Source of the DNA: Sulfurimonadaceae bacterium
GTDB taxonomy: Bacteria; Campylobacterota; Campylobacteria; Campylobacterales; Sulfurimonadaceae
NCBI GenBank assembly: GCA_041546225.1
Contig: JBFEWT010000017.1
Coordinates: 1 to 27,212, forward strand
DNA length: 27,212 bases
Direction: 5' to 3'
Positions 1,601 to 27,212 of this stretch are shown in pieces (positions within the stretch are counted from its first letter, which is position 1; every line of letters begins with the position of its first letter). Below the pieces are notes generated by a model that saw only the letters and a program-made list of their open reading frames with translations, was not told where the DNA came from and did no database searches. Position numbers and translations under genes: made by a program.

Positions 1601-1692
1601 AAAAAAGCGTGAGCTTTGGAATGATTAACGCACTTTTTATCTTAAGCATACTAAAATCCACACATAACAAACAAGCAACAAAGGACCCGTAT

Positions 1693-2148
1693 ATGTTGAA
1701 ACTTGAAATCACCCCCGGTCAGCTTGGCGTACGTCCCCCCGTCACCAAACCGCACCCGGGCTTTTTGTACGAAGTGGGCGAAGAGCGTTTTCGCAAACTT
1801 GTAGACGACCACTATGAGCTCATCCGCAACAGCGATATCTCTTTTCTTTTCCCAATCCATGACGAAGACGATTTCGCAGCGGCAAAAAAACATGCTGCGG
1901 ATTTTCTTATTCAGATCTGCGGAGGACCTGACTATTTCAACCAGTCACGCGGCGAGCCGCGCATGGTCGGACGCCACGCACCGTTCCGCATCGACGAATC
2001 CTCCCGCCGCCGCTGGCTGGAGTTCTACGCCGAACTGCTCCCGCCGCTTGAAAAAGAGGGAATCAACCCCGAGTATATAAAATCGTTCTGGGACTACCTC
2101 GACATCTTCTCTATCTGGATGATCAATACGCCTACGATGCCAAAGTAG
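1693..2148 (+). CDS. Group II truncated haemoglobin (trHbO/YjbI-like 2/2 globin)
   Basis: The translation aligns by eye to trHbO/YjbI: the B10 Tyr is in the DDHY context, and ICGGPDYF, RHAPFRI and WLEFY correspond to the GGP and RHxPFxI blocks of M. tuberculosis trHbO and B. subtilis YjbI. I place the start at ATG 1693 with an AAGGA RBS at 1681. The ORF-track GTG at 1609 adds a hydrophobic extension without an RBS. Confidence 0.8.
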   Translation: MLKLEITPGQLGVRPPVTKPHPGFLYEVGEERFRKLVDDHYELIRNSDISFLFPIHDEDDFAAAKKHAADFLIQICGGPDYFNQSRGEPRMVGRHAPFRIDESSRRRWLEFYAELLPPLEKEGINPEYIKSFWDYLDIFSIWMINTPTMPK

Positions 2149-4402: not shown

Positions 4403-5083
4403 ATGCAAGAGATTATCGACCGTATCGACTGGACAAAGCAGGAGCTGCTGCCCGTCATCGCACAGGATGCGAACAACAACGAAGTGCTTATGATGGCCTA
4501 CATGAACCGTGAAGCGCTGCAGCTCTCGCTGCAGAGCAAAGAGGCACACTACTTCTCGCGCTCCAAACAGCGTATCTGGAAAAAAGGCGAGAGCAGCGGT
4601 CACATCCAGAAGATCAAGAGCTTTTTCATCGACTGCGACAACGACACCCTGCTTATAAAAATTGAGCAGGAGGGTGTGGCCTGCCATACCGGGCGACGAA
4701 GCTGTTTCTTTACCGAACTCGAATCGGGCGAAGCGACATCCGCCGTCGAAGTCGATACAGCGGCTATGTACGGTGTCATCGATGAGCTCTACCATACGAT
4801 ACTCGAACGCAAAAACGCCGATCCGGAAAGTTCATGGACGGCCAAGCTTTTCGCAAAAGGCGAAAATACCATTTTGAAAAAAGTCGTTGAAGAGGCGGGA
4901 GAGTTCAGCTTTGCCGTCAAGGACAACGACGAGGATGAGATCGTCTACGAAGCTGCCGATCTCACCTATCATGTACTCGTCGCCCTTGGCTACAAAAACA
5001 TCTCCCCCGACCGTATCAAGCAGGAACTCGCCCGCCGGTTCAACATGAGCGGGATCGCAGAGAAAAACAGTCGAGACAAATGA
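4403..5083 (+). CDS. hisIE: Bifunctional phosphoribosyl-AMP cyclohydrolase / phosphoribosyl-ATP pyrophosphatase
   Basis: The N-terminal half matches HisI (PVIAQD...EGVACHTGRRSCFF). The C-terminal half matches HisE (LYHTILERK...EAADLTYHVLVAL). ATG 4403 has an AGGGA RBS. The ORF-track TTG at 4370 is less likely. Confidence 0.88.
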   Translation: MQEIIDRIDWTKQELLPVIAQDANNNEVLMMAYMNREALQLSLQSKEAHYFSRSKQRIWKKGESSGHIQKIKSFFIDCDNDTLLIKIEQEGVACHTGRRSCFFTELESGEATSAVEVDTAAMYGVIDELYHTILERKNADPESSWTAKLFAKGENTILKKVVEEAGEFSFAVKDNDEDEIVYEAADLTYHVLVALGYKNISPDRIKQELARRFNMSGIAEKNSRDK

Positions 5084-5595
5084 AGCATCAGATAAATAAC
5101 TTTCTCGCCGGGCTCGTCACCTATGACTATATCTTTTTCGCCGCGGTGGCCCTGCTCTTTATTCTTTTGCTTGTACTCGCCGTCGTGCTGCGCAATCGCC
5201 TGACGCTTGCCGTTCTTATTATCCTGTTCGCTTTTATCGAACTCATCCTCGGCTCGACTCTTGGGTACAAGAGCATGCATGCCTACCTCTATAAAGCGGA
5301 ACTGAAAGTCACCGAGTTCAAAGCCCTTGAGTTTACCGATGCGCTTGTGCTCAAAGGCACATTGACCAATGCCTCAAAACTCCCCTTCACGCACTGCGAC
5401 GTTACTGCCGGTGCCTATAAAGTCTCCGGGAACAGCCTGCTGGATATGCTCTACCCGCTAAACCCTTTTGCAAAGGCGTCGATAGTAGTCAAACAGGATT
5501 TAGCCGTGGGAGAGAGCGTGGAGTACAAGATCATAATCGAACCGTTTACCTACAGCAACGAATACAATATCACTACCGGAGTACGATGCAGATGA
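5080..5595 (+). CDS. Hypothetical 2-TM membrane protein with a roughly 110-aa extracytoplasmic domain (paralogue A)
   Basis: The start overlaps the hisIE stop as ATGA. There are two hydrophobic helices (YIFFAAVALLFILLLVLAVVL and LAVLIILFAFIELILG) followed by a beta-rich-looking soluble domain. The same architecture appears in the next gene. Confidence 0.6.
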   Translation: MKHQINNFLAGLVTYDYIFFAAVALLFILLLVLAVVLRNRLTLAVLIILFAFIELILGSTLGYKSMHAYLYKAELKVTEFKALEFTDALVLKGTLTNASKLPFTHCDVTAGAYKVSGNSLLDMLYPLNPFAKASIVVKQDLAVGESVEYKIIIEPFTYSNEYNITTGVRCR

Positions 5596-6146
5596 CCACC
5601 TATTTTACTATATGGCATTACGCCGTTATCGCCTTTGTCGCCATACTATTTTTACTGCTCACACTGCTTTCACTGCGTGAGAAAAAACCAAATGTCCGCA
5701 ACTCGATGATATTATCCTCTTTTGTCGTAATGGTCCTCGTTGCCGCATTTATGCTCATGGCACTGGATAAATACACCAAAAAAGCGGAGGTCTTCGAACT
5801 CAAGAACCGCCGTATTCTGACCACGGAGCAGATCGTCTACAGCGGCTTTGTCCAGAATGTCGGCAACTATACGATCGGTGAGGTAAAACTGGAGATCAAG
5901 CTCGTCAACAAAGGGCATGTGACCGGTAATGTCAAAGGGGGGTCATTCTACAAACCGAGCGGGTTCTTCGACTTCTTTGGAGGAGGCGGGGACGATAAGA
6001 GAAAATACCGTCCGCAACAGGTCATCGAGACCTTTGTCATAGCAAAGAACCTCAGACCGGGCAAGACCGAGCAGTTCCATGTCTCTATGGATTACCCGCC
6101 CTATTTCAAACACACCGCTGACTTCACACGGGTGTTCGCACACTAA
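5586..6146 (+). CDS. Hypothetical 2-TM membrane protein with a Gly-rich soluble domain (paralogue B)
   Basis: It overlaps the upstream gene (ATG at 5586, or ATG at 5592 in an ATGA overlap with the stop at 5593..5595). Two TM helices are followed by a domain containing FFDFFGGGGDDKRKYRP. GGAG lies at 5578..5581. Confidence 0.6.
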   Translation: MQMTTYFTIWHYAVIAFVAILFLLLTLLSLREKKPNVRNSMILSSFVVMVLVAAFMLMALDKYTKKAEVFELKNRRILTTEQIVYSGFVQNVGNYTIGEVKLEIKLVNKGHVTGNVKGGSFYKPSGFFDFFGGGGDDKRKYRPQQVIETFVIAKNLRPGKTEQFHVSMDYPPYFKHTADFTRVFAH

Positions 6147-9288: not shown

Positions 9289-9321
9289 TACTGTCCCTTC
9301 GTACACACAAAAGATTCGGAG

Positions 9322-9436: not shown

Positions 9437-10381
9437 TTAATGGTTGAGCTTTTCGTCAACGTAGCTGATGACCTGCAGGGCAGCAACGGCACCGTCGCCG
9501 GCGGCACAGACGACCTGCTTCGGTGCGTCATTGCGCATATCACCCGCAGCGAAGAGGCCCGGGACAGAGGTGTTCATCTTGATGTCTACCTGCACTTCGC
9601 CCCACTGTGTCATATCACAGATGAACGAACCGTCTTCTTGTTTCAATACACCGTTGTTAACGTCATAACCGACGAAGATGAAAACACCCGGTACGTCGAT
9701 CTCACGTGTCGCACCGTCATTCATCTTGACACGGATGCCCGTTACGCCCATCGCATCACCGTAAACCTCGTCCGGTGCCGCATTGAGAACCAGTTCGATA
9801 TTTTCCGTATTCTTGACACGTTCGATGGTGTTAGGCGCCGAACGGAACTCGTCGCGGCGGTGAATAAGATAGACTTTTGCACAGATCTTGGCAAGGTAAA
9901 GCGCCTCTTCGAGTGCCGTATCACCGCCACCGATAACTGCGACCTCTTTACCTTTGTAAAAGAAGCCGTCACAGGTCGCACAGGTACTTACACCGCGACC
10001 GAAGAACTCCGCCTCACCCGTAAAACCTGCAGGACGCGGATTTGCACCCGTACAGACGATGACACTGAGTGCCTCTTCTGTCGTACCGTCACCCTTGTGA
10101 ATAACAAAGTTATCCGCATCATTCTTGCTGATACGGGTCACTTCGACCATCGCATGTTTCAGACCGAATTTCTGGCACTGTTCAGGCCATGGCATCATCA
10201 GATCCATACCGGTGATCTCACCGGTCACACCCGGATAGTTCTCGATCTCGGAACTCTTTGTGATCTGCCCGCCGGGCATACCTTTTTCAAACATGGTAAC
10301 GTTATCCAAACCACCACGGGTAGCATAAAGTCCAGCTGTCAAACCAGCCGGTCCGCCCCCGATAATTGCACAATCTAACAT
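9437..10381 (-). CDS. trxB: Thioredoxin reductase
   Basis: It has an FAD motif ([11 protein letters not shown]), the redox-active CATCDG motif and an NADPH motif ([14 protein letters not shown]). ATG lies 1 nt after the stop of the upstream gene, which suggests translational coupling. Confidence 0.92.
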
Positions 10382-10382
10382 A

Positions 10383-10859
10383 TCAGTATTCCTTTGTAAT
10401 CTCTTCTAAAGTATCAAGTTGGCGTATCATACTGTCTTGTTTATAAAGTCCGTCTTTGACTTTTTTAATAATAAAAACGGTAGGTGTATGATAAATATTA
10501 AAGCGTTGAATCAACTGCAAAGTCGTGTTGGTACCACTGCGTACAAAGAGCGTATTCTCCGTTGATTCGAAGCTCTGCTGGTAGTAGTCGACTGCCAATA
10601 TTGGGTATGCCGCCTTAGCCTCTTTCAGCGTCTCTGCGGTACCGGGTACGTTAGAGCTGTAAAAGACGACGACATACTTTTCGGCAGTGGGTGTAAACAG
10701 TGTTTTTTTCTGATAGAAGACCCATTCAGAAAAGTTGACGAATTTATATTCGGAGAATTTGTAGTTGAAGTAAGCGAAAGCGGCAGCGACCATCGCCGCG
10801 CCAAAGAAAGAGGCGAGCAGTGTCGTGACCGAGAAGAGACCTGCTCCCCTTCGTGCCAT
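10383..10859 (-). CDS. Membrane-anchored thioredoxin-fold protein lacking the CxxC active site
   Basis: It has an N-in signal-anchor ([31 protein letters not shown]). The soluble domain resembles thioredoxin: [14 protein letters not shown] sits where thioredoxin has ..DFWA.WCGPC, and [12 protein letters not shown] matches the cis-Pro beta-strand. The protein contains no Cys. Confidence 0.6.
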
Positions 10860-11712: not shown

Positions 11713-13785
11713 CTATGCTACCGGCGCCTCGGCAGGGACAATATCGACCTTGATCGATTTGAACGCCGCCGTCATGATCAGCTCATCGCGCTTGTCGCCG
11801 AAGATGGCGTTTACTTTTGATCTGGAGTGGTGAAAGGTGACAAAAAGTGTTTTCGGTTTCACCTTGTCGGTCAGCTTGACACGCAGCGGAGTCGTCTCGC
11901 CGTGCTCGTTCTTCAAGATCACATACTCTGTAGGGAAATCTTTTGCATCCTCTTCGCAGACCAAGAGCACGTCTTCATCGTAACGTTTGTTCAATGACTC
12001 GCTTCGCTTGGTCTGCGCCGCATTGTTGTAGTGCGCCAGGGTACGTCCCGTAGTCAGATGATACCCCTCCAGGCGATCTTCGAGAATCTCTTTGATCATC
12101 CCGCGTTCCTGGTACTGATGGTAATGGAACTGCCCAAGCCCGTCGGGAGTTCTAAAGTCAAGCAGGTGCAGTACCGGCGTATCTTCGTTATATACCGGCC
12201 ACTGAAGTCCGCGTTTGCGATGGCGCTCGAGTCTCAGGTACGATGCCCCGCTGTAACGCTGCGTTGCCGTCTTGCGCACCTCTTCCCAGACGTCGTTGCT
12301 CTCTTTATAGTCGTAGTTGGCCCCGAGCTTGTTGCTTAGCATCTGGATCACTTCCCAGTCATCGGGGAGGTCGCTCTGTACCAGCGGCTGCGAGAGGTGC
12401 AGACGGCGCATCGCATTGACATAGACGCCGGTCTTCTCATACGCCGACTTCACACCGACGACAATATCCGCACGCTGTGCGATGTCGGTCATAAAGAGTT
12501 CCTGAACCAGGATGAACTCCAGCTGGTCCATCGCTTTTTCGATCTTGTTGATGTTAGGGTGGATATGCATGATATCTTCGCCCATGTTGTGCAGGGACTT
12601 TATCTTGCCCTCGAGCATCGCATCGATGAGGATCGGTGTCGCCAGGCCGGACTCTTCGGGTGTCTGATAATCCGGCTCATAATACGGCAGACAGCCCATA
12701 TCGCAGGCACCCTGCACGTTGTTCTGACCGCGTAGCGGCATGAGGCCTACGCCGTGGCGGCCGACATTGCCCGTCAGAAGCGCCAGGTGGGTGATCGCCA
12801 TTACCGCGTACGAACCGTCTGTATGTTCGGTGATGCCCAGACCCCAGAAGATCATCGAGTTTTTCACGGCATATTCGCGCGCGATGTTCGGGATGAGTTT
12901 GGCAAGGTGTTCATACCCCTTGAGCTGCTTGAAGTAGTCCGGGTTGGCATACGGGTCGCTGAGTATCTTCTCTTTATACTCCTCGAACCATTTCGTGCGC
13001 GTTGCGATGAACTCTTTGTTATAGAGCTCCTCTTCGATGATGACATGGGCCATCATATTGAGGACAAGCAGGTTCGCTTCGTGCGGGATGATAGCCTGAT
13101 GCTTGGCGTACTTCATCAGTTTGATCTCGCGTACGTCCAAAACGGCCAGGTTGTTGTTTTTACGGGCCGCGTCGATCATACGGTTGGCTACGATAGGGTG
13201 TGCCTCGGTCGTGTTCGAACCGATGACGATCATGAACTCTGTTTCATAAATATCGTTATACGGGTTGGTAGCAGCGCCCTCGCCGATGGTCGTACGCATA
13301 CCTTTCAGGCTCGGTGCGTGGCAGACGCGTGCACAGTTGTCGATGTTGGGTGACTTGAGGGTCTGGCGGGTATATTTCTGGAACAAGAACGCGCTCTCGC
13401 ACGAGGTTCGCGCCCCGCCGATAGAGCTGAGGCTGTGACGCCCGTACTTCTCTTTGATCTCGAGCATCTTCATCGCCGATGCCGTTGTCGCACCCTCAAG
13501 ATCGGTCGTGTACCAGGTGTCGTCAAGTTCGCCCAGCGATGAGGCGATGGCCTCTTTGATGTGCGGGTTCTTCTCTAAAAAGCTCTTCTTGACACGCGGC
13601 TGACGGACACGTTCGTCCGAAGCGACAAAGTCAAAACCGTACTTGCCCTTGATACAGAGTTTCCCCTGTGATACATATCCATCCGGGGATGCGCTGATCT
13701 TAACTATTTTGTTGTCTTCAACTTCACCGACGATGTCACATCCGACACCACAATAGGTACATACGCTGTCAATCATCTTTGCCAT
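11713..13785 (-). CDS. Molybdopterin (bis-MGD) oxidoreductase of the formate dehydrogenase H (FdhF) family, Cys variant
   Basis: It has the N-terminal [4Fe-4S] motif CTYCGVGC...C. The block CARVCHAPS corresponds to E. coli FdhF ARV-U-HGPS, with Cys in place of selenocysteine. The 690-aa length fits a stand-alone FdhF. ATG at 13785 is preceded by a GGAG RBS. Confidence 0.8.
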   Translation of the reverse strand: MAKMIDSVCTYCGVGCDIVGEVEDNKIVKISASPDGYVSQGKLCIKGKYGFDFVASDERVRQPRVKKSFLEKNPHIKEAIASSLGELDDTWYTTDLEGATTASAMKMLEIKEKYGRHSLSSIGGARTSCESAFLFQKYTRQTLKSPNIDNCARVCHAPSLKGMRTTIGEGAATNPYNDIYETEFMIVIGSNTTEAHPIVANRMIDAARKNNNLAVLDVREIKLMKYAKHQAIIPHEANLLVLNMMAHVIIEEELYNKEFIATRTKWFEEYKEKILSDPYANPDYFKQLKGYEHLAKLIPNIAREYAVKNSMIFWGLGITEHTDGSYAVMAITHLALLTGNVGRHGVGLMPLRGQNNVQGACDMGCLPYYEPDYQTPEESGLATPILIDAMLEGKIKSLHNMGEDIMHIHPNINKIEKAMDQLEFILVQELFMTDIAQRADIVVGVKSAYEKTGVYVNAMRRLHLSQPLVQSDLPDDWEVIQMLSNKLGANYDYKESNDVWEEVRKTATQRYSGASYLRLERHRKRGLQWPVYNEDTPVLHLLDFRTPDGLGQFHYHQYQERGMIKEILEDRLEGYHLTTGRTLAHYNNAAQTKRSESLNKRYDEDVLLVCEEDAKDFPTEYVILKNEHGETTPLRVKLTDKVKPKTLFVTFHHSRSKVNAIFGDKRDELIMTAAFKSIKVDIVPAEAPVA

Positions 13786-13924: not shown

Positions 13925-15541
13925 TCATTCAGTGTCAAAATCCAGCTGTTCTGGTCTCATCTCTTCTTGGCCGAACCTGATGTGCAGCTCTTTGTCGTAA
14001 AAGAAGCGCACGACCTCTTTGTCCAGCGCGTTCTGTTCCGCCATCGACTCCATGATGCGTTTTACCATACTCATAGGCATGGTCTCTTTATAGGGTCTGT
14101 CCGAAGCGGTCAATGCCTCAAAGATGTCCGCGAATGCCAGTATCCTCGCTTCGAGCGAAAGCTCTTTCGCGCTTAATCCCAGCGGGTAACCCGTCCCGTC
14201 AAGCCGCTCGTGATGGCCGCCGGCGATTTCGGGAACTCTTCGCAGTTTCTTCGGAAAGGGAAGCTGCCGCAGCATCTCGTGGCTAACGCGGGCATGATCG
14301 TTGATGATCTCGCGTTCAGCACTGTTCAGCGTCCCTTTGGCGATCGTAATATTTTCAAGTTCGTCCCTGCTGAGAAGCGGCTCTTTTTTGCCGCCGGCAC
14401 ACCACTCTCTTTTGGCGATCTCATGCACCCGCGCGATATCATCTTCGTGCATCACTTCGCCGCCTATGTTGATGCTCTCCAAAAAAGCCATCTCTTCATC
14501 AAGCATCTGAACATCCCGCAGGAACTCCGCTTTGCGTTTTTCAAGCACTGCATCTTCTTTGCCCCCCAAAGCCTCTTTCTCTTTATAAAAAGCGAGTTCG
14601 CGCTCTCTCTTCAGCAGCTCGAAACGCATTTTGACTATTTCGATACGGTCGTATATCGTTTCGAGTTTCGTCGTCTTGTTGATGACGTATTCGGGTGTAG
14701 TGATCTTCCCGACATCATGCATCAATGCAGCGATATGAAGCTCTTCGAGCTCATGCGCATCATAATATATATCTTTAAACACGCCCTCGTCCGAAGCGTT
14801 GATCGCTTCACTCATCAAGCCCGTTATCTTCGCCACTTTCCTGATGTGTCCCCCCGTATGCGGAGACTTTTCATCGATGGCGGTCGCGATACTTTGGATA
14901 AACGACCGCAAAAGCTTCTTCAGGTCATTGATGAGCTGTGTGTTTGTAAGCGCAACGGCCGCCTGCGATGCCACGGAGAGTGCGATATCCCTGTCGGCTT
15001 GCGTAAAGGAGACGATCTCCCCGCTGCGAGGATCGATCCGGTTTATCAGCTGGCATACCCCGATGATCTCCGCTTCATGATTGCGCATCGGGATGACCAG
15101 CATCGACTTTGAACGGTAGCCGGTGCTGGCATCGAACATCTTGGTGCCGGTAAAATCCCACGCGTTCGTAGTGTGCACATCATCGATGGCGACTACTTTA
15201 CCTTCAATGGCGCACAGCACGGCGACCATTTCCCTGTTCTCGCTGCCATCTTCGCTGTAGAGCCGCAGCGGCTCCCATTCAATAGGTTCATGCGTACCGC
15301 CCATCTTTACACCCAGCGAGTCGGTCTGGACCACATTGAACTCCAAAAACTGCTCGTCCGCACTTTTCAGGTAAAGTGTCCCTGCATCGGCAGTGGTCAA
15401 TGTTTTCAGCTCCGTCAGGATCAATTCGAGCAATACATTGCGGTCGTGTTCCGCAGAGAGTGCCATACCGATCTTGTTGAGCTGCCCGATCAAAGCCTCT
15501 GCACCCTCTTCTCCTGTACTCCCCAGATGTATATCACTCAT
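13925..15541 (-). CDS. GAF-domain HD-GYP phosphodiesterase (probable c-di-GMP hydrolase)
   Basis: The C-terminal region has HD (ALMHDVGK) and GYP ([16 protein letters not shown]) motifs. A roughly 200-aa GAF-like sensory domain lies N-terminal to it. Confidence 0.85.
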
Positions 15542-18234: not shown

Positions 18235-19053
18235 CTACTTTACTCCCTGCGCCTGAATGCGCAGTCCGTCTTTAATATTTTTTAGACTGTACAGATCCCC
18301 TATCTTCACATAGGCGGTATCACGCGGAAGCGCCAGGGTTATCTGCCAGGTTTTGCGGTCGCGTTTATAGACTTTCAATAAACGCAACGTACTGTCATAA
18401 AATGCGACGTAAGGATACCAGTTATTTCCTTTTAAACTCCATACGGTAAGACGTTTTACATTGGAAACATCCAGCCAATGGGCATCCAGGGAACGTTTAA
18501 ACGTAAGCTCTTCGCCATTGAGTATCTTCGTCAGATCAAGATGTGCCTGTGACATGTCGATCTCGTAGTGCCATTTTTGAGCGCTGTCGCGGACAACATC
18601 GACAATATCGCAGCCGCGTTTGTTGAGCTCGCTTCGCAGCATGGTCGGGTCGGTCGCATACTCCGAGGTAAGCTTTATCTTCCACGCAAACGCACTCTCA
18701 TCGAGCTTCGACTCCTCCGTAACATACCGGTAGTAGCCCATGGAGCGCAGCACGTCACCCATGATTTTGACAAAAAAGAGCGGCTGTCCGTTGGTCGAAA
18801 AAGTGATCTCCAGCGACTGCGGTGACTCAAAATAGAGGTTGAGCAGGCCGTTCTCTTTAAGCGTCTCAATGACTTTTACCGTGTCGATACGCTCATTGTG
18901 GTAGTAGTTCTCATAAGGCGAGAAGATGATCTCTATAAACGCCCTGTTCTCCTCGAACGTCTGCGCTTCTATGATGGACTGGACCTTTTCAAAGAGCAGT
19001 TCGTCCGCGCGCAGCGAAAGGAAAAGGAGGGCCAGGAGCCAAAACAGTCTCAC
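18235..19053 (-). CDS. Secreted hypothetical protein, 272 aa
   Basis: The GTG start overlaps the upstream stop (GTGA) and follows a GGGGAA RBS. The N-terminus (M)RLFWLLALLFLSLRADE is a signal peptide. I recognise no catalytic motif. Confidence 0.55.
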   Translation of the reverse strand: MRLFWLLALLFLSLRADELLFEKVQSIIEAQTFEENRAFIEIIFSPYENYYHNERIDTVKVIETLKENGLLNLYFESPQSLEITFSTNGQPLFFVKIMGDVLRSMGYYRYVTEESKLDESAFAWKIKLTSEYATDPTMLRSELNKRGCDIVDVVRDSAQKWHYEIDMSQAHLDLTKILNGEELTFKRSLDAHWLDVSNVKRLTVWSLKGNNWYPYVAFYDSTLRLLKVYKRDRKTWQITLALPRDTAYVKIGDLYSLKNIKDGLRIQAQGVK

Positions 19054-19790
19054 CAGTCACTTCCCCTGTTCTTTACGATAAACTGCTCTTGATTGATGCG
19101 CACAAGCACACCGTCTTCATACAGCAGGCGTACACGCTTGCGGTCATTAAGGTCGAGTGTCTCGTCACCATGCTCGACTTTAACCTGCCCGTGCCCCATA
19201 ATGATCAGCCAGGACTTCTCCGCATCAAGCTCAAAAGCCTTTTCGGTCATTCTGGTCGTTCGTTTATTGTTCTCAAGGTCGATCATGCCGACCCAGAGGT
19301 TCATCTTGGGAACAATAGCCAGGTGGCGTACGACGGCGACCGGCTCTTCGACGACCGGCTCTTCGACCTGAGCCGCTTCCATCTGCGCTTTCGTCTCCTG
19401 GATCAGTGCCGTATTGAGATCTGAAACCGCCGGTTCCTCTTCCTCTTCGGAGCCGTTAAATGCAATAATGGCCAAAACGATGACGATGATGACGATAGCG
19501 CCGATCACCCCTTTGTTGAGTGTACGCTCCTGCTGTTTATCACCGGATTCCGCAGAAACACTCATCGCTTCGTCTGCATCGCCCGCATAACGGAGGTACT
19601 CCTCTTTCAGGGCACCAAGGTCTATCGAATACTCGCGCTCAAGGATCGAGATAAAGCCCATAAACTGGATCTTGTTCAACTTCTCAAACGACTTCTCCAG
19701 TATCAGTTCAATGTTTTTTCTTGATATGTGTGTCGTATCGTGGATCTTTTGCGCCCCGAGACGCTTTAAATGTTCAAAACCGTCTACCAT
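19050..19790 (-). CDS. RodZ-like cytoskeleton-associated protein (HTH domain, TM, C-terminal DUF4115-like domain)
   Basis: The N-terminus has an XRE-like HTH (TTHISRKNIELILEKSFEKL). An acidic linker follows, then a TM helix (GAIVIIVIVLAIIAF), a Glu/Pro-rich spacer, and a C-terminal roughly 70-aa beta domain as in RodZ. Confidence 0.65.
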   Translation of the reverse strand: MVDGFEHLKRLGAQKIHDTTHISRKNIELILEKSFEKLNKIQFMGFISILEREYSIDLGALKEEYLRYAGDADEAMSVSAESGDKQQERTLNKGVIGAIVIIVIVLAIIAFNGSEEEEEPAVSDLNTALIQETKAQMEAAQVEEPVVEEPVAVVRHLAIVPKMNLWVGMIDLENNKRTTRMTEKAFELDAEKSWLIIMGHGQVKVEHGDETLDLNDRKRVRLLYEDGVLVRINQEQFIVKNRGSDW

Positions 19791-23999: not shown

Positions 24000-24667
24000 A
24001 GCAGGATTTTACTGCTGACGGCAACCGCAGCACTCTCCGACCTTAGAACCAGCGGGGTGTCGAGCCTGAACCTCCGCTGCTTCGAGAGCAGCTCACGCTC
24101 TTTTTCGCTAAAACCGCCTTCGCAGCCTATCAGCACCGTCTCGATATCCGATGTCTCCTGAAGCACGTTTTCACAAAAATCAAACACCGCCGTATCGGGA
24201 TGCGACGCAATAAACTCGCTGAGCGAACCTGCCGTCGCGAATGCCATCATGGCACTGCGCCCGCACTGCTGCATCGATGCCGTGACCATGCGTTCATACC
24301 GTTTCAGGTCGCTTCTGAAGTTCTTCTGCGAGCGTTCGCAGTTGATAAAGGTGATCTTCTCGACCCCAAGCTCATTGAGCATCGGCAGTACTTTTTCGAC
24401 CGATTTCGGGTCGATGACACACCAGCCGATATGCAGTTTTTTATCCGCTTTTACGATGGATTCCGTACTGTTTTGAAGTGTGAAACGGGCGTTGCGCCCG
24501 TCGATATCTATGAGGGAGTAGCTGTGCAGCATCTGCGTACTTTCAGGGTGCCGGAAAGCGACGACATCCCCGACCTGATGACGGCGCACCTTTATCAGGT
24601 ATTTGTAGTTCTCGCCTTTGACAAGCAGCGTTTCTTTTCCCGCATCCTCGTCAAAAAGAAAGATCAC
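23996..24667 (-). CDS. rsmE: 16S rRNA (uracil1498-N3)-methyltransferase
   Basis: It has a PUA-like N-terminus. The SPOUT C-terminus carries GCEGGFSEKERE, which matches the RsmE GPEGG(F/W)S motif. The stop codon overlaps the stop of the convergent TonB-receptor gene. Confidence 0.85.
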   Translation of the reverse strand: MIFLFDEDAGKETLLVKGENYKYLIKVRRHQVGDVVAFRHPESTQMLHSYSLIDIDGRNARFTLQNSTESIVKADKKLHIGWCVIDPKSVEKVLPMLNELGVEKITFINCERSQKNFRSDLKRYERMVTASMQQCGRSAMMAFATAGSLSEFIASHPDTAVFDFCENVLQETSDIETVLIGCEGGFSEKERELLSKQRRFRLDTPLVLRSESAAVAVSSKILL

Positions 24668-25071
24668 AGTACCATCCAGGCGGTGATACCGGCTGTCCAG
24701 ATCATCTCTGCTCCAAGAATACGCAGGGCGATACGCTTGTACGACGCCATCGCATCCTCTTTTCTCGGATCGGTACGTTTGAGTATCTTGTAGCGTTTGA
24801 CCTCGAGTACGATCATCACGATACCGAATACGATCATCACAATGTTCTCAACCGTAAAGTCAAGATGCTTTGCGGCCATCATAATCGTACCCGTAAAGAG
24901 CACTGCAGCGATAAGTGTCGCGCCGACCGGCATCCAGACACGTGTCTTGTTGGCATACTGGTAGATATTCTCCGCCATCAGCAACTGTACTATATTAAGC
25001 CCTGTCACACCTATCAACGCCCAGACGACGAAGGCATGAACACCGATTGTCATTGTATACATCTCTTCCAT
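24664..25071 (-). CDS. Small polytopic membrane protein (about 4 TM), function unknown
   Basis: It has four hydrophobic helices and its stop overlaps the rsmE start (ATGA). It is the first gene of the minus-strand rsmE array. An alternative start at ATG 25053 (MTIGVHAF..) has a GGAAGAG RBS. Confidence 0.55.
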   Translation of the reverse strand: MEEMYTMTIGVHAFVVWALIGVTGLNIVQLLMAENIYQYANKTRVWMPVGATLIAAVLFTGTIMMAAKHLDFTVENIVMIVFGIVMIVLEVKRYKILKRTDPRKEDAMASYKRIALRILGAEMIWTAGITAWMVL

Positions 25072-26353: not shown

Positions 26354-26932
26354 ATGCCGCGCTTCTTTGTCTTAAGGTCCTACGCCCTTCCTCTCCTTCT
26401 CCTCTTCACCGCTCTATTTACCCAACTGGCGGGGCCCGAAGCGACGGCGCTGCTGCGTTATGAACAGTCGTTCATAACTGATGGAGAGCTCTGGCGCCTG
26501 CTGAGTGCGCACCTGGTACACCTTGACTGGACACACTTCTGGATGAATGCCGCCGCACTGGTGTTTATATGGATACTTGTCGGAGACTTTCTGACCCAGA
26601 CGGAGTGGGTCTCTACACTCTTCGCGAGTGCAGTGGGCATCACACTCGGTTTTTACCTTTTTATGCCCTCTTTGCAGTGGTATGTCGGGCTTTCGGGTGT
26701 TTTGCATGCGCTGCTGATATGCGGTGCGTTGATGGGAACAGTGCAAAAAGATCGTCTCAGTATGATTCTCCTGACAGGCATCATTGTCAAACTCATGGCA
26801 GAACATTTCTACGGTGCGTTCTCATCGGAAATCATAGAGGGGAGTGTCGTGACGGAATCGCACCTTTTCGGTGCGCTCATGGGAATGGCCTCAGCCTTTG
26901 TCATAGGGCTGAGAAGAAAATTTAGTTCGTAA
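26354..26932 (+). CDS. rrtA: Rhomboid-family intramembrane serine protease, rhombosortase-like (192 aa, 6 TM, no extra domains)
   Basis: Rhomboid motifs are intact. TM2 has WRLLSAHLVHLDWTHFWMN (GlpG: WRYFTHALMHFSLMHILFN). TM4 has GLSGVLHAL (GlpG: GLSGVVYAL, catalytic Ser). TM6 has ESHLFGALMG (GlpG: AHIAGLAVG, catalytic His). It starts 4 nt after moeA. It is convergent with, and overlaps by 11 nt, a gene whose product ends in a GlyGly-CTERM signal. Confidence 0.78.
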   Translation: MPRFFVLRSYALPLLLLFTALFTQLAGPEATALLRYEQSFITDGELWRLLSAHLVHLDWTHFWMNAAALVFIWILVGDFLTQTEWVSTLFASAVGITLGFYLFMPSLQWYVGLSGVLHALLICGALMGTVQKDRLSMILLTGIIVKLMAEHFYGAFSSEIIEGSVVTESHLFGALMGMASAFVIGLRRKFSS

Positions 26933-27212
26933 TCCTGCGGCGGGCGTACATGCCGTAGAGACTCAGGAGTCCGAGTCCTAGCAGCATCCAGATACCGGTA
27001 CTGCCGCTGCCGCCGCTGCTGCTGCTATTTTCTTCCGCCATTATAGCACCCGGGTCTTTGATCTCGGCATTTGCCCAGCCATCGGCATCATTTGGACCGC
27101 CATCCTGAATAGTAAGCTGAATACACTCATCACCGCCAGTAAGCGTTCTATAATTTGATGAACCTGGAGAAGGGCATACGCCATCAACTTTTAATGCTGA
27201 CTGAACGGCATT
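26922..27212 (-). CDS. 3' end of a gene for a GlyGly-CTERM-sorted secreted protein (partial; 5' end beyond the window)
   Basis: The ORF runs open to the window edge and is not in the supplied ORF track. Its 96 visible residues are NAVQSALKVDGVCPSPGSSNYRTLTGGDECIQLTIQDGGPNDADGWANAEIKDPGAIMAEENSSSSGGSGSTGIWMLLGLGLLSLYGMYARRRITN*. They show a Ser/Gly-rich linker with GG, a hydrophobic TM segment and an RRR cluster, which is the canonical GlyGly-CTERM architecture. An Asp/Gly-rich DGGPNDADGWANAEIKDPG motif sits upstream. Confidence 0.7.
   Translation of the reverse strand, partial: NAVQSALKVDGVCPSPGSSNYRTLTGGDECIQLTIQDGGPNDADGWANAEIKDPGAIMAEENSSSSGGSGSTGIWMLLGLGLLSLYGMYARRRITN

What the first reader, a model, noticed from the sequence alone, without database searches (positions are those of the whole stretch)
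26354..27212. Rhombosortase with a convergent, overlapping GlyGly-CTERM target gene missed by the ORF track
The truncated minus-strand gene at the window edge carries a canonical GlyGly-CTERM sorting signal: ...SSSSGGSGSTG-IWMLLGLGLLSLYGMY-ARRR-ITN*. It is convergent with a minimal 192-aa rhomboid protease that has the rhombosortase architecture of six TM helices, intact Ser/His catalytic residues and no accessory domains. The two stop codons are arranged so that the genes overlap by 11 nt (26922..26932). Rhombosortase/GlyGly-CTERM is a known but sparsely characterised sorting system and adjacency to a target is its hallmark. Here the pair sits directly after moeA in a housekeeping context. 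The cargo also has an Asp/Gly-rich Ca-binding-like motif (DGGPNDADGWANAEIKDPG) and a Cys pair, and its identity lies beyond the window. This is the strongest non-housekeeping system I can see here.
Basis: partly seen in the sequence, partly recalled or inferred. Interest (0 to 1): 0.72.

Follow-up and report, generated by a model that had tools for sequence, protein, structure and literature searches.

The report
Rhombosortase beside its surface-protein client
The window ends with a gene for a membrane-embedded sorting protease (rhombosortase) lying tail-to-tail with the cut-off end of the protein it most likely processes, a known kind of system whose client here is probably a giant ten-haem surface cytochrome.

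Summary
ORF 26354..26932 (+, 192 aa) is a rhombosortase: TIGR03902 scores 144.6 bits against a cutoff of 84, while the GlpG model scores only 27. The catalytic Ser114/His170 are intact, and the model shows a six-helix GlpG-like fold.

The minus-strand frame 26922..27212 is open for all 96 codons. It overlaps the rhombosortase gene by 11 nt and ends in a Gly/Ser motif, a TM helix and RRR. It is cut because the window is a complete 27,212-bp contig.

- The tail is not "canonical". TIGR03501 gives 7.3 bits against a cutoff of 15.5. It matches a lineage-specific form of the signal.
- The "Ca-binding-like" motif is the core of the NCBIfam choice-of-anchor U domain.

The organism is an uncultured Sulfurimonadaceae. 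The same convergent pair recurs in three other lineages of rhombosortase (31-47% identical). There the client is intact: a 1391-1478-aa secreted protein with ten CxxCH haem sites, an MtrC-like domain and the same C-terminal module. A signature, NAE[IV]KDPG, is shared only by that family and the window fragment.

Verdict: a dedicated rhombosortase/client pair, a new member of a known kind. The cytochrome identity of the client is inferred, not seen.

The parts
26354..26932 (+). rrtA: rhombosortase gene (192 aa plus stop). It starts 4 nt after the moeA stop.
   Evidence: TIGR03902 scores 144.6 bits (cutoff 84), GlpG model 27.3 bits against 250. Pfam Rhomboid scores 53.8 bits. The AF2 model has pLDDT 92.9, and its best PDB matches are GlpG with TM-scores 0.62-0.74.
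26693..26695 (+). Codon of the catalytic Ser114, in the WYVGLSGVLH motif of TM4. His118 is the stacking residue.
   Evidence: S114, G112, G115 and H118 are invariant in 26 aligned rhombosortases. The motif is as described for rhombosortase in PMC3237569.
26861..26863 (+). Codon of the catalytic His170, in SHLFGALMG (the TM6 motif AHxxGxxxG).
   Evidence: H170 and G173 are invariant and G177 nearly invariant. The motif is described in PMC3237569.
26922..27212 (-). 3' end of the client (cargo) gene: 96 codons plus stop. The 5' part is missing because the contig ends here.
   Evidence: The frame is open throughout. The window equals a whole 27,212-bp contig. tblastn with an intact family member (L168 cytochrome) matches only 27051-27212, at 67% identity.
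27048..27212 (-). C-terminal part of a choice-of-anchor U domain (fragment residues 1-55). It includes Cys13, Cys30 and the QDGGPNDADG...NAEIKDPG core.
   Evidence: NF041766 scores 36.3 bits (cutoff 32) and matches profile positions 57-91. Invariant columns are Y21 L24 G27 C30 L33 Q36 D37 G38 G39 N41 D42 A43 D44 G45 N48 K52 D53 P54.
27027..27047 (-). Short acidic linker (AIMAEEN). Its length varies between strains.
   Evidence: The 99.5%-identical contig L001 carries 24 extra codons here.
26994..27026 (-). Gly/Ser-rich signature motif SSSSGGSGSTG. Cleavage is predicted after SSGG.
   Evidence: By analogy, VesB is cleaved and modified after ...SASSGG (PMC6219818). The cleavage site here is inferred, not shown.
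26943..26993 (-). Hydrophobic transmembrane segment IWMLLGLGLLSLYGMYA.
   Evidence: The sequence comes and passes the tail heuristic. A lineage-specific tail profile scores 22.4 bits, E = 3e-5, the best non-training hit among 7134 C-termini.
26922..26942 (-). Basic cluster RRR followed by ITN and the stop codon. This end would face the cytoplasm.
   Evidence: It is conserved as ...ARRKITN* in L083.
26922..26932 (.). 11-nt overlap of the two convergent genes (TTAGTTCGTAA).
   Evidence: The same geometry occurs in L001, L083 and L165. No terminator-like site lies at the junction.

Best explanation
This is a dedicated rhombosortase system in an uncultured member of the Sulfurimonadaceae (Campylobacterota). 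It consists of the intramembrane serine protease RrtA (26354..26932) and, convergent with it, the 3' end of the gene for its client protein.

The client carries a choice-of-anchor U domain. This is followed by a short variable linker and a tripartite sorting signal: a Gly/Ser motif with GG, a transmembrane helix and an RRR cluster.

Proposed mechanism, by analogy with Vibrio cholerae VesB/RssP:
1. The client is exported by Sec and held in the inner membrane by its C-terminal helix, with the RRR cluster in the cytoplasm.
2. RrtA cleaves within or just after the SSSSGG motif.
3. The new C-terminal glycine is joined to a glycerophosphoethanolamine-containing lipid.
4. The large extracytoplasmic protein therefore stays tethered to a membrane, and ultimately to the cell surface if an outer-membrane translocation route exists.

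The part of the client lying beyond the contig end is most likely a protein of about 1400 aa with ten c-type haem sites and an MtrC-like domain. That is the client found beside the rhombosortase in related lineages.

What is shown: the enzyme's identity, the tail architecture, the overlap and the conservation of the gene pair. What is inferred: cleavage, lipidation, surface exposure and the cytochrome identity of this particular client. The confidence of 0.75 is for the rhombosortase-plus-client reading as a whole; I put the enzyme identity at about 0.95, the functional pairing at about 0.85 and the cytochrome identity of the client at about 0.6-0.7.
For: Enzyme:
- TIGR03902 scores 144.6 bits (cutoff 84), against 27.3 bits for GlpG.
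- Ser114, His118, His170 and the WR and HxxxxHxxxN motifs are invariant.
- The AF2 model has pLDDT 92.9 with six long helices, and GlpG structures are its best PDB matches.

Client fragment:
- The frame is open for all 96 codons.
- The choice-of-anchor U domain scores 36.3 bits against a cutoff of 32.
- The tail is tripartite, with no Cys and no PEP motif.
- A profile built from four family tails, with the window left out, ranks the window tail as the best non-training hit of 7134 C-termini (22.4 bits, E = 3e-5).

Linkage between the two genes:
- The same convergent pair occurs in L001 and L083 (same clade).
- It also occurs in L002, L006 and L168 (Sulfurimonas; rrtA 45-47% identical; 12-nt gap).
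- It occurs again in L165 (rrtA 31% identical; the same 11-nt overlap).
- The gene on the other side of rrtA differs between these loci: moeA, infC or a TonB-dependent receptor.
- Adjacency marks dedicated, single-target systems (PMC3237569).

Client identity:
- In a BLAST ranking using only the domain core, ranks 1, 2, 3, 6 and 7 of 149 belong to the ten-haem family. The best is P0251, at 71% identity.
- The signature NAE[IV]KDPG occurs only in the 6 family members among 151 proteins, and in the window.
- Family members are 1391-1478 aa, have signal peptides and 10 CxxCH sites at conserved positions, and hit Pfam Mtrc-MtrF_II-IV (46.8 bits against 30), Cytochrome_C7 and two Golvesin_C domains.

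Mechanism precedent: VesB is cleaved to expose the second Gly of SSGG and is conjugated to glycerophosphoethanolamine (PMC6219818). The GlyGly-CTERM signal alone is sufficient for targeting to RssP and for membrane association (PMC13393428).
Against: - The general GlyGly-CTERM model TIGR03501 gives only 7.3 bits against a cutoff of 15.5.
- The isolated tail scores 22 bits to MYXO-CTERM, just above that model's 20-bit cutoff.
- The haem-binding part of the client is not in the window. Choice-of-anchor U domains also end unrelated giant adhesin-like proteins. One of these, P0264 (3358 aa), has a very similar tail.
- The pair is not universal. L004 has rrtA without the client, and L084 and L166 have the cytochrome without rrtA on the contig.
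- The L165 client, although adjacent to rrtA, has a tail without a GG motif.
- A type II secretion system is needed for surface display in Vibrio. None is visible here, and it is reported as incomplete in one related epsilonproteobacterial population genome (PMC4674564).
- No experiment exists for any Campylobacterota rhombosortase in the literature searched.
Confidence: 0.75

Rival explanations
1. The pair is a rhombosortase system, but the client in this organism is not the ten-haem cytochrome. It is instead another large surface protein, adhesin-like or enzyme-like, that merely shares the choice-of-anchor U module and the sorting tail.
For: - Choice-of-anchor U ends many unrelated proteins of 700-4900 aa.
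- Only the domain and the tail are visible in the window.
- The tail most similar by eye belongs to a 3358-aa haem-free protein, P0264.
- Bit scores of the full 96-aa fragment fall off smoothly rather than in a step.
Against: - The domain-core ranking puts the cytochrome family at ranks 1, 2, 3, 6 and 7 of 149.
- The NAE[IV]KDPG signature is exclusive to that family and the window.
- Every intact client found beside a Sulfurimonadaceae-type rhombosortase is of the cytochrome family: L006, L165 and L168.
- The family-specific tail profile picks out the window tail.
Confidence: 0.25
2. The C-terminal helix is simply a permanent membrane anchor and is not cleaved. The neighbouring rhomboid acts on other substrates, and the adjacency has no functional meaning.
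For: - TIGR03501 is not met.
- Most rhombosortase loci examined have no tripartite-tail neighbour. A rough heuristic finds 3 of 80 genome loci.
- L004 has rrtA in the same thrS-infC context without the client.
Against: - The pair is conserved across rrtA genes only 31-47% identical, while the outer flanks change.
- The literature finds adjacency precisely in single-target systems (PMC3237569).
- The motif SSSSGG resembles the mapped VesB site SASSGG.
- The protein is a rhombosortase equivalog and not a GlpG-type rhomboid.
Confidence: 0.08
3. The tail is a MYXO-CTERM or other Cys-type or PEP-type sorting signal, handled by a myxosortase or exosortase rather than by the rhombosortase.
For: The isolated tail scores 22.0-22.3 bits to TIGR03901 (cutoff 20), and 19.3 bits within the 96-aa fragment. 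Relatives of the domain do carry JDVT-CTERM tails with GGGC. One example scores 31.9 bits.
Against: - The window tail has no cysteine, whereas MYXO-CTERM and JDVT-CTERM each have an invariant Cys in the signature motif (PMC3237569; bioRxiv 10.1101/2023.06.07.544157).
- There is no PEP motif, and Pfam PEP-CTERM scores 10.7 bits against 20.7.
- No CPBP-type protease or exosortase lies in the window, while a rhombosortase is adjacent.
Confidence: 0.03
4. The minus-strand frame is a decaying remnant of a client gene, a pseudogene, rather than the end of an intact gene.
For: - The gene cannot be followed past the contig end.
- The homologue in L006 is split into 462-aa and 882-aa ORFs.
- The linker differs by a 24-codon indel between strains that are 99.5% identical.
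Against: - All 96 codons are open in the window, and all 72 in L001.
- All invariant residues of the domain are kept.
- The indel is in frame and lies in a linker.
- L084, L165, L166, L167 and L168 carry intact genes of 1391-1478 aa.
Confidence: 0.05

Closest known systems
Rhombosortase RssP (RrtA) with GlyGly-CTERM clients such as VesB in Vibrio cholerae (PMC3237569, PMC6219818, PMC13393428)
   Same: - The enzyme is the same equivalog family, TIGR03902.
- It has the same six-helix rhomboid core and the same catalytic Ser/His motifs.
- The client tail is tripartite: a Gly/Ser motif containing SSGG, a TM helix and an Arg cluster, placed after an unstructured linker.
   Different: - The lineage is Campylobacterota, not Gammaproteobacteria.
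- There appears to be one adjacent, convergent client, a dedicated system, rather than six scattered ones.
- The tail does not reach the TIGR03501 cutoff.
- The client is probably a very large multihaem cytochrome rather than a protease or nuclease.
- Dependence on a type II secretion system is unknown.
Dedicated, single-target rhombosortase systems listed by Haft & Varghese 2011 (for example Marinobacter, Ralstonia, Geobacter sp. M18 and Anaeromyxobacter)
   Same: The protease and its only apparent target are encoded next to each other. The pair behaves as a unit.
   Different: No Epsilonproteobacteria or Campylobacterota appear in that survey. Here the genes are convergent and overlap by 11 nt, so they cannot be co-transcribed.
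MtrC/OmcA outer-surface decahaem cytochromes of Shewanella
   Same: The related clients (L168, P0251) hit the Pfam MtrC/MtrF domain II/IV model above its threshold and have ten CxxCH sites. Both would be lipid-tethered extracellular electron carriers.
   Different: - MtrC and OmcA are about 650-750 aa. [quoted passage not shown]
- This family is twice as long.
- It adds Golvesin_C, PKD-like and choice-of-anchor U modules.
- It would be tethered at its C-terminus.
- Sequence similarity is limited to one haem domain.
E. coli GlpG-type rhomboid protease
   Same: Same fold (Foldseek TM-scores 0.62-0.74, 21-24% identity) and same catalytic dyad.
   Different: It scores only 27 bits against 250 on the GlpG equivalog. 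It also lacks the cytoplasmic N-terminal domain of GlpG.

Membership tests
Rhombosortase (NCBIfam TIGR03902, RrtA/RssP) | The whole-protein HMM score is above the curated cutoff and better than other rhomboid subfamilies. | tested here: met
   144.6 bits against a cutoff of 84. The GlpG model TIGR04239 scores 27.3 bits against 250.
Rhombosortase (NCBIfam TIGR03902, RrtA/RssP) | Rhomboid catalytic dyad and signature motifs: WRxxS/T in L1, GxSG...H in TM4 and AHxxGxxxG in TM6. | tested here: met
   The motifs are WRLLS, WYVGLSGVLH (S114, H118) and SHLFGALMG (H170, G173, G177). S114, H118, H170 and G173 are invariant in 26 sequences. The motifs are as given in PMC3237569.
Rhombosortase (NCBIfam TIGR03902, RrtA/RssP) | Six-TM rhomboid core without accessory domains. 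| tested here: met
   The protein is 192 aa. The AF2 model has pLDDT 92.9 with helices at 7-25, 59-79, 82-103, 114-130, 134-153 and 168-191. GlpG chains are its top PDB matches.
Rhombosortase (NCBIfam TIGR03902, RrtA/RssP) | Co-occurrence in the genome with at least one GlyGly-CTERM protein. | tested here: inconclusive
   An adjacent gene ends in a tripartite Gly/Ser-TM-RRR tail, but TIGR03501 is below its cutoff. The rest of the genome is unavailable.
Rhombosortase (NCBIfam TIGR03902, RrtA/RssP) | Cleaves the sorting signal of its client. | not testable with these tools
   This needs a mutant or mass spectrometry. The precedent exists only in Vibrio cholerae (PMC6219818).
GlyGly-CTERM sorting domain (TIGR03501) | HMM score at or above the 15.5-bit cutoff. 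| tested here: not met
   7.3 bits on the isolated 33-aa tail. The model is not listed at E <= 1 on the 96-aa fragment. Haft notes that lineage-specific models are often needed. A family-specific tail profile gives 22.4 bits, E = 3e-5.
GlyGly-CTERM sorting domain (TIGR03501) | Tripartite architecture at the extreme C-terminus: a glycine-rich motif (often SGGS), a TM helix and a basic cluster. | tested here: met
   The tail reads SSSSGGSGSTG / IWMLLGLGLLSLYGMYA / RRR-ITN*.
GlyGly-CTERM sorting domain (TIGR03501) | No cysteine in the signature motif. This distinguishes it from MYXO-CTERM. | tested here: met
   There is no Cys in the last 66 residues. The criterion comes from PMC3237569.
GlyGly-CTERM sorting domain (TIGR03501) | An N-terminal signal peptide and no other TM segment. 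| not testable with these tools
   The N-terminus lies beyond the contig end. The related intact clients L084, L168, P0251, P0320 and P0274 begin with signal-peptide-like sequences.
GlyGly-CTERM sorting domain (TIGR03501) | Encoded next to the rhombosortase when it is the only target in the genome. | tested here: inconclusive
   Adjacency is met, and no other such tail lies in the 27-kb window. The number of targets in the genome cannot be counted.
Choice-of-anchor U domain (NCBIfam NF041766) | HMM score at or above the 32-bit cutoff, with the domain placed just before a C-terminal anchor. | tested here: met
   36.3 bits over profile positions 57-91. The rest of the domain is cut off. In relatives the domain precedes varied anchors, which fits its name.
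MYXO-CTERM (TIGR03901) | An invariant cysteine in the signature motif. | tested here: not met
   There is no Cys in the tail. The HMM score is borderline: 19.3 bits in the fragment and 22 bits for the isolated tail, against a cutoff of 20.
Sulfurimonadaceae ~1400-aa decahaem cytochrome family (defined here, not a curated family) | A C-terminal module with the NAE[IV]KDPG signature and the GG-x-GS...[YW]xLLxLGL tail. | tested here: met
   The signature is found only in the 6 family proteins of 151, and in the window. The tail profile scores 22.4 bits.
Sulfurimonadaceae ~1400-aa decahaem cytochrome family (defined here, not a curated family) | Ten CxxCH haem sites, an MtrC-like domain and Golvesin_C domains. 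| not testable with these tools
   These regions lie beyond position 27212. They are present in L084, L168, P0251, P0320 and P0274.

The most novel reading that the evidence does not exclude
Sulfurimonadaceae use a dedicated rhombosortase to lipid-anchor, by its C-terminus, a decahaem MtrC-like cytochrome of about 1400 aa on the cell surface. This would be a previously undescribed route for displaying an extracellular electron-transfer protein. It could underlie the solid-phase (Mn/Fe oxide) or interspecies electron exchange that has been proposed, but not explained mechanistically, for Sulfurimonas. The window holds one such pair.
Probability: 0.35. Interest if true: 0.6.

Novelty: new member of a known kind. 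Interest (0 to 1): 0.35.

Why it matters
Rhombosortase sorting has been studied experimentally only in Vibrio cholerae, plus some work in Acinetobacter and Shewanella. There its clients are proteases, nucleases and lipases.

This locus and its relatives show the system in chemolithoautotrophic Campylobacterota as a one-enzyme, one-client unit. The client is apparently a very large multihaem cytochrome.

If so, it gives a concrete and testable candidate for how Sulfurimonas-type sulfur oxidisers place redox proteins outside the cell. That question was raised by the MnO2-dependent sulfide oxidation of 'Ca. Sulfurimonas marisnigri' and by the expression of electron-transfer genes near cable bacteria (PMC11748539).

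It also shows that the general TIGR03501 model misses lineage-specific GlyGly-type tails. Counts of rhombosortase clients in such genomes are therefore underestimates.

In itself, though, the enzyme would be named correctly by standard annotation, so the finding is not a new kind of system.

Tried and rejected
Attempts to extend the cargo gene:
- Exact-protein look-ups of the window's rhombosortase and MoeA found nothing.
- A 33-nt exact pattern from the window edge found nothing in the metagenome contigs.
- The genome-contig scan found no relative above 45% identity, so the species is not among the representatives reached.
- The only same-species contigs found are shorter: L001 at 1.1 kb and L164 at 4.7 kb.
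- phmmer against 1.84 billion representatives found no full-length protein closer than 58%.

Alternatives considered and rejected:
- GlpG-type rhomboid: rejected by HMM scores.
- MYXO-CTERM, JDVT-CTERM and PEP-CTERM: rejected for lack of Cys or PEP.

Other checks that led nowhere:
- I asked whether the TonB-dependent receptors near rrtA in the window and in L165 are a conserved third component. They are not: 26% identity over 142 aa.
- No other fragment of the cytochrome family, and no ORF with two or more CxxCH motifs, is present in the window.
- No Rfam family, tRNA, excess of terminators or promoters, or repeats occurs at the junction.
- No solved structure is related by sequence to the cytochrome family.
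- A crude tail heuristic on 80 rhombosortase loci from genomes found only 3 adjacent tripartite tails. This fits 'adjacent only when dedicated', but it is a lower bound.
Full report
**1. The observation**

The plus-strand ORF 26354..26932 (ATG, 192 aa) is present. The minus-strand frame from 27212 down to 26925 translates into 96 residues without a stop. It ends NSSSSGGSGSTG-IWMLLGLGLLSLYGMYA-RRR-ITN, followed by a stop at 26922-26924.

The ORF lister shows only a 39-aa ATG ORF here, because frames that run off the window are not listed.

The junction has no terminator-like hairpin, no excess of promoter-like sites and no repeats.

**2. The enzyme**

- The 192-aa protein scores 144.6 bits (E = 2e-42) to the NCBIfam equivalog TIGR03902 'rhombosortase', whose cutoff is 84.
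- It scores only 27.3 bits to the GlpG equivalog, whose cutoff is 250.
- Pfam Rhomboid gives 53.8 bits.

In an alignment with 25 relatives, R48, H56, H61, W109, G112, S114, G115, H118, H170 and G173 are invariant. These residues form the motifs Haft & Varghese described for the subfamily: WRxxS, GLSGxLH and AHxxGxxxG (PMC3237569).

An AlphaFold2 model is confident (pLDDT 92.9, pTM 0.88) and shows six long helices. Its best matches among solved structures are E. coli and H. influenzae GlpG, with TM-scores of 0.62-0.74 and 21-24% identity.

Public databases already name close relatives 'rhombosortase [Sulfurimonas sp.]'.

**3. The minus-strand fragment**

Residues 24-58 match the NCBIfam domain NF041766, 'choice-of-anchor U', at 36.3 bits against a cutoff of 32. 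The match covers profile positions 57-91, so the domain is cut by the window edge.

Calcium binding was not tested.

The general GlyGly-CTERM model does not accept the tail:
- TIGR03501 is absent at E <= 1 on the fragment, and gives 7.3 bits against a cutoff of 15.5 on the isolated tail.
- MYXO-CTERM scores 19.3-22.3 bits around its 20-bit cutoff. The tail has no cysteine, however, and the cysteine is the criterion that separates the two signals (PMC3237569; bioRxiv 10.1101/2023.06.07.544157).

'Canonical' is therefore too strong. The tail has the defining tripartite architecture, and its SSSSGG motif resembles the mapped VesB processing site SASSGG (PMC6219818). But it is a lineage-specific variant.

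**4. Source and limits**

The rhombosortase and PurF of the window are recorded on a contig of exactly 27,212 bp. The window is therefore a whole contig, and the client gene is cut by the end of the assembly.

PurF is 91% identical to a 'Sulfurimonadaceae bacterium' MAG and 87-88% identical to Sulfuricurvum and Sulfurimonas. The window has 51% G+C, against 31-40% in the Sulfurimonas-type loci.

The rest of the window is housekeeping: aldehyde dehydrogenase, IlvE, HisIE, PurF, DapB, a formate-dehydrogenase-like molybdoenzyme, Hom, DapL, rRNA methyltransferases, a TonB-dependent receptor and MoeA. All attempts to extend the gene failed.

**5. The pair is conserved, and elsewhere the client is intact**

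| Locus | Relation to the window | Arrangement |
|---|---|---|
| L001 | 99.5% nt identity | Same junction |
| L083 | rrtA 76% identical | Same 11-nt overlap; tail ...ARRKITN* |
| L002, L006, L168 | Sulfurimonas contigs; rrtA 45-47% identical; TIGR03902 139-140 bits (scored for L002 and L006) | thrS-infC-rrtA convergent with a large gene 12 nt away. It is 1418 aa and intact in L168, split into 462 + 882 aa in L006, and cut in L002 |
| L165 | rrtA 31% identical; TIGR03902 134 bits | Overlaps by the same 11 nt the end of a 1391-aa gene; flanked on the other side by a TonB-dependent receptor |

The outer neighbour of rrtA thus changes (moeA, infC or a receptor), while the client stays. This argues for a functional unit.

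It also fits the published rule that protease and target are adjacent in genomes with a single target, in 16 of 21 cases, and far apart otherwise (PMC3237569). The pair is not universal:
- L004 has rrtA without the client.
- L084 and L166 have the client without rrtA on the contig.

**6. What the client is**

The intact relatives (L084, L168, P0251, P0320, P0274) form one family, 42-67% identical over their full length and 1391-1478 aa long. They share:
- an N-terminal signal-peptide-like sequence;
- ten CxxCH haem-binding motifs at conserved positions;
- Pfam hits to the MtrC/MtrF domain II/IV model (46.8 bits against 30), Cytochrome_C7 and two Golvesin_C domains;
- choice-of-anchor U followed by the tail GG-x-GS-..-[YW]-x-LL-x-LGLF...R/K.

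Choice-of-anchor U itself is widespread: 1631 representatives at E <= 1e-3. It ends many unrelated giant proteins with varied anchors. The domain alone therefore does not identify the client.

Three observations tie the window fragment to the cytochrome family:
1. In a BLAST ranking with only the 58-residue domain core, family members take ranks 1, 2, 3, 6 and 7 of 149. P0251 is best, at 71% identity.
2. The signature NAE[IV]KDPG occurs only in the six family proteins among 151, and in the window.
3. A profile built from four family tails, with the window excluded, scores the window tail at 22.4 bits (E = 3e-5). This is the best non-training hit among 7134 C-termini.

I put the probability that the window's client belongs to this family at about 0.6-0.7.

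**7. Mechanism**

Steps taken from experiments in Vibrio cholerae:
- Rhombosortase cleaves the GlyGly-CTERM signal to expose the second glycine. [quoted passage not shown]
- Surface display then requires the type II secretion system (PMC6219818).
- The signal alone is enough for targeting to RssP and for membrane association. Crossing the outer membrane needs a second signal (PMC13393428).

By analogy, the client here would be exported by Sec and held by its C-terminal helix with RRR in the cytoplasm. It would then be cut by RrtA at SSSSGG and lipid-tethered. Everything after 'the genes are adjacent and of the right families' is inference for this organism.

The outer-membrane step is the weakest link. 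No secretion genes are in the window, and a related epsilonproteobacterial population genome was reported to have an incomplete type II system (PMC4674564).

**8. Comparison with what is known, and novelty**

As an enzyme, this is a member of a known family that standard annotation would name. As a system, it is a dedicated rhombosortase/client pair of the type described in 2011, but in a phylum absent from that survey.

No paper in the searched library links rhombosortase to a cytochrome client. Extracellular electron transfer has been proposed for Sulfurimonas without a defined outer-surface component (PMC11748539).

The finding is therefore a new member of a known kind. It has a moderately interesting, but here only inferred, cargo.

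Noticed in passing
window 27021-27047 compared with L001 989-1080: The linker between the choice-of-anchor U domain and the sorting tail differs between two contigs that are otherwise 99.5% identical. L001 has 24 extra codons (ISAPESDVITGDGDITTGDIGVTTGGG) where the window has IMAEEN. This is a strain-variable, repeat-like linker.
   Followed up: partly
window end (27212); L001, L002 and L025 contig ends; L166 3405-10337: Several independent assemblies break inside or right at the client gene. L166 carries two tandem paralogues of the ~1400-aa cytochrome gene. Paralogy and strain indels probably cause the contig ends.
   Followed up: partly
window 9437-10381 (-) compared with L164 62-1003: The thioredoxin-reductase-like gene is only 70% (nt) and 80% (aa) identical to its counterpart in L164. 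The adjacent 3.6 kb (dapB-purF-mnmL) is 99.2% identical. The sharp boundary near 9289 suggests allelic replacement by recombination.
   Followed up: partly
L006 10597-14715: In this Sulfurimonas MAG the client is split into a 462-aa ORF and an 882-aa ORF in different frames. The orthologues in L168 and L084 are single genes of 1418-1435 aa. This is either a frameshift error or a pseudogene.
   Followed up: partly
L165 10040-10176: The 1391-aa cytochrome overlaps a bona fide rhombosortase gene by 11 nt. Yet its tail (KKSKWWLGAFEIWFIFILGFIAIGRFANTKISV) has no Gly-Gly motif and only a weak basic cluster. Whether it is still processed is unclear.
   Followed up: no
L006 10582-10600 compared with window 26922-26932: The 11-mer at the junction is still recognisable in Sulfurimonas (TTAGTCTGTAA against TTAGTTCGTAA). 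Reading the L006 client past its stop gives RRK*NITD*, against RRRITN* in the window. This hints that the junction is ancestral and that the stop positions have shifted.
   Followed up: no
L084 719-1384 and 5660-6328; L165 5334-5990: Small paralogous cytochromes of about 220 aa, each with five CxxCH sites, flank the giant cytochrome gene in some loci. They are possible electron-transfer partners. None is present in the window.
   Followed up: no
window 5080-5595 and 5586-6146 (+): Two tandem, overlapping DUF2393 paralogues (123.9 and 88.4 bits) lie directly after hisIE.
   Followed up: no
window 13925-15541 (-); 1609-2148 (+): A 538-aa GAF plus HD-GYP-type (HD_5) signalling protein lies next to a formate-dehydrogenase-alpha-like molybdoenzyme gene (11713-13785). 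A truncated-globin family protein is encoded near the left end.
   Followed up: no
window 18235-19053, 19050-19790, 10383-10859 and 24664-25071 (all -): Four ORFs of 135-272 aa have no NCBIfam or Pfam hit. The 135-aa one, between rsmE and moeA, looks like a multi-pass membrane protein.
   Followed up: no
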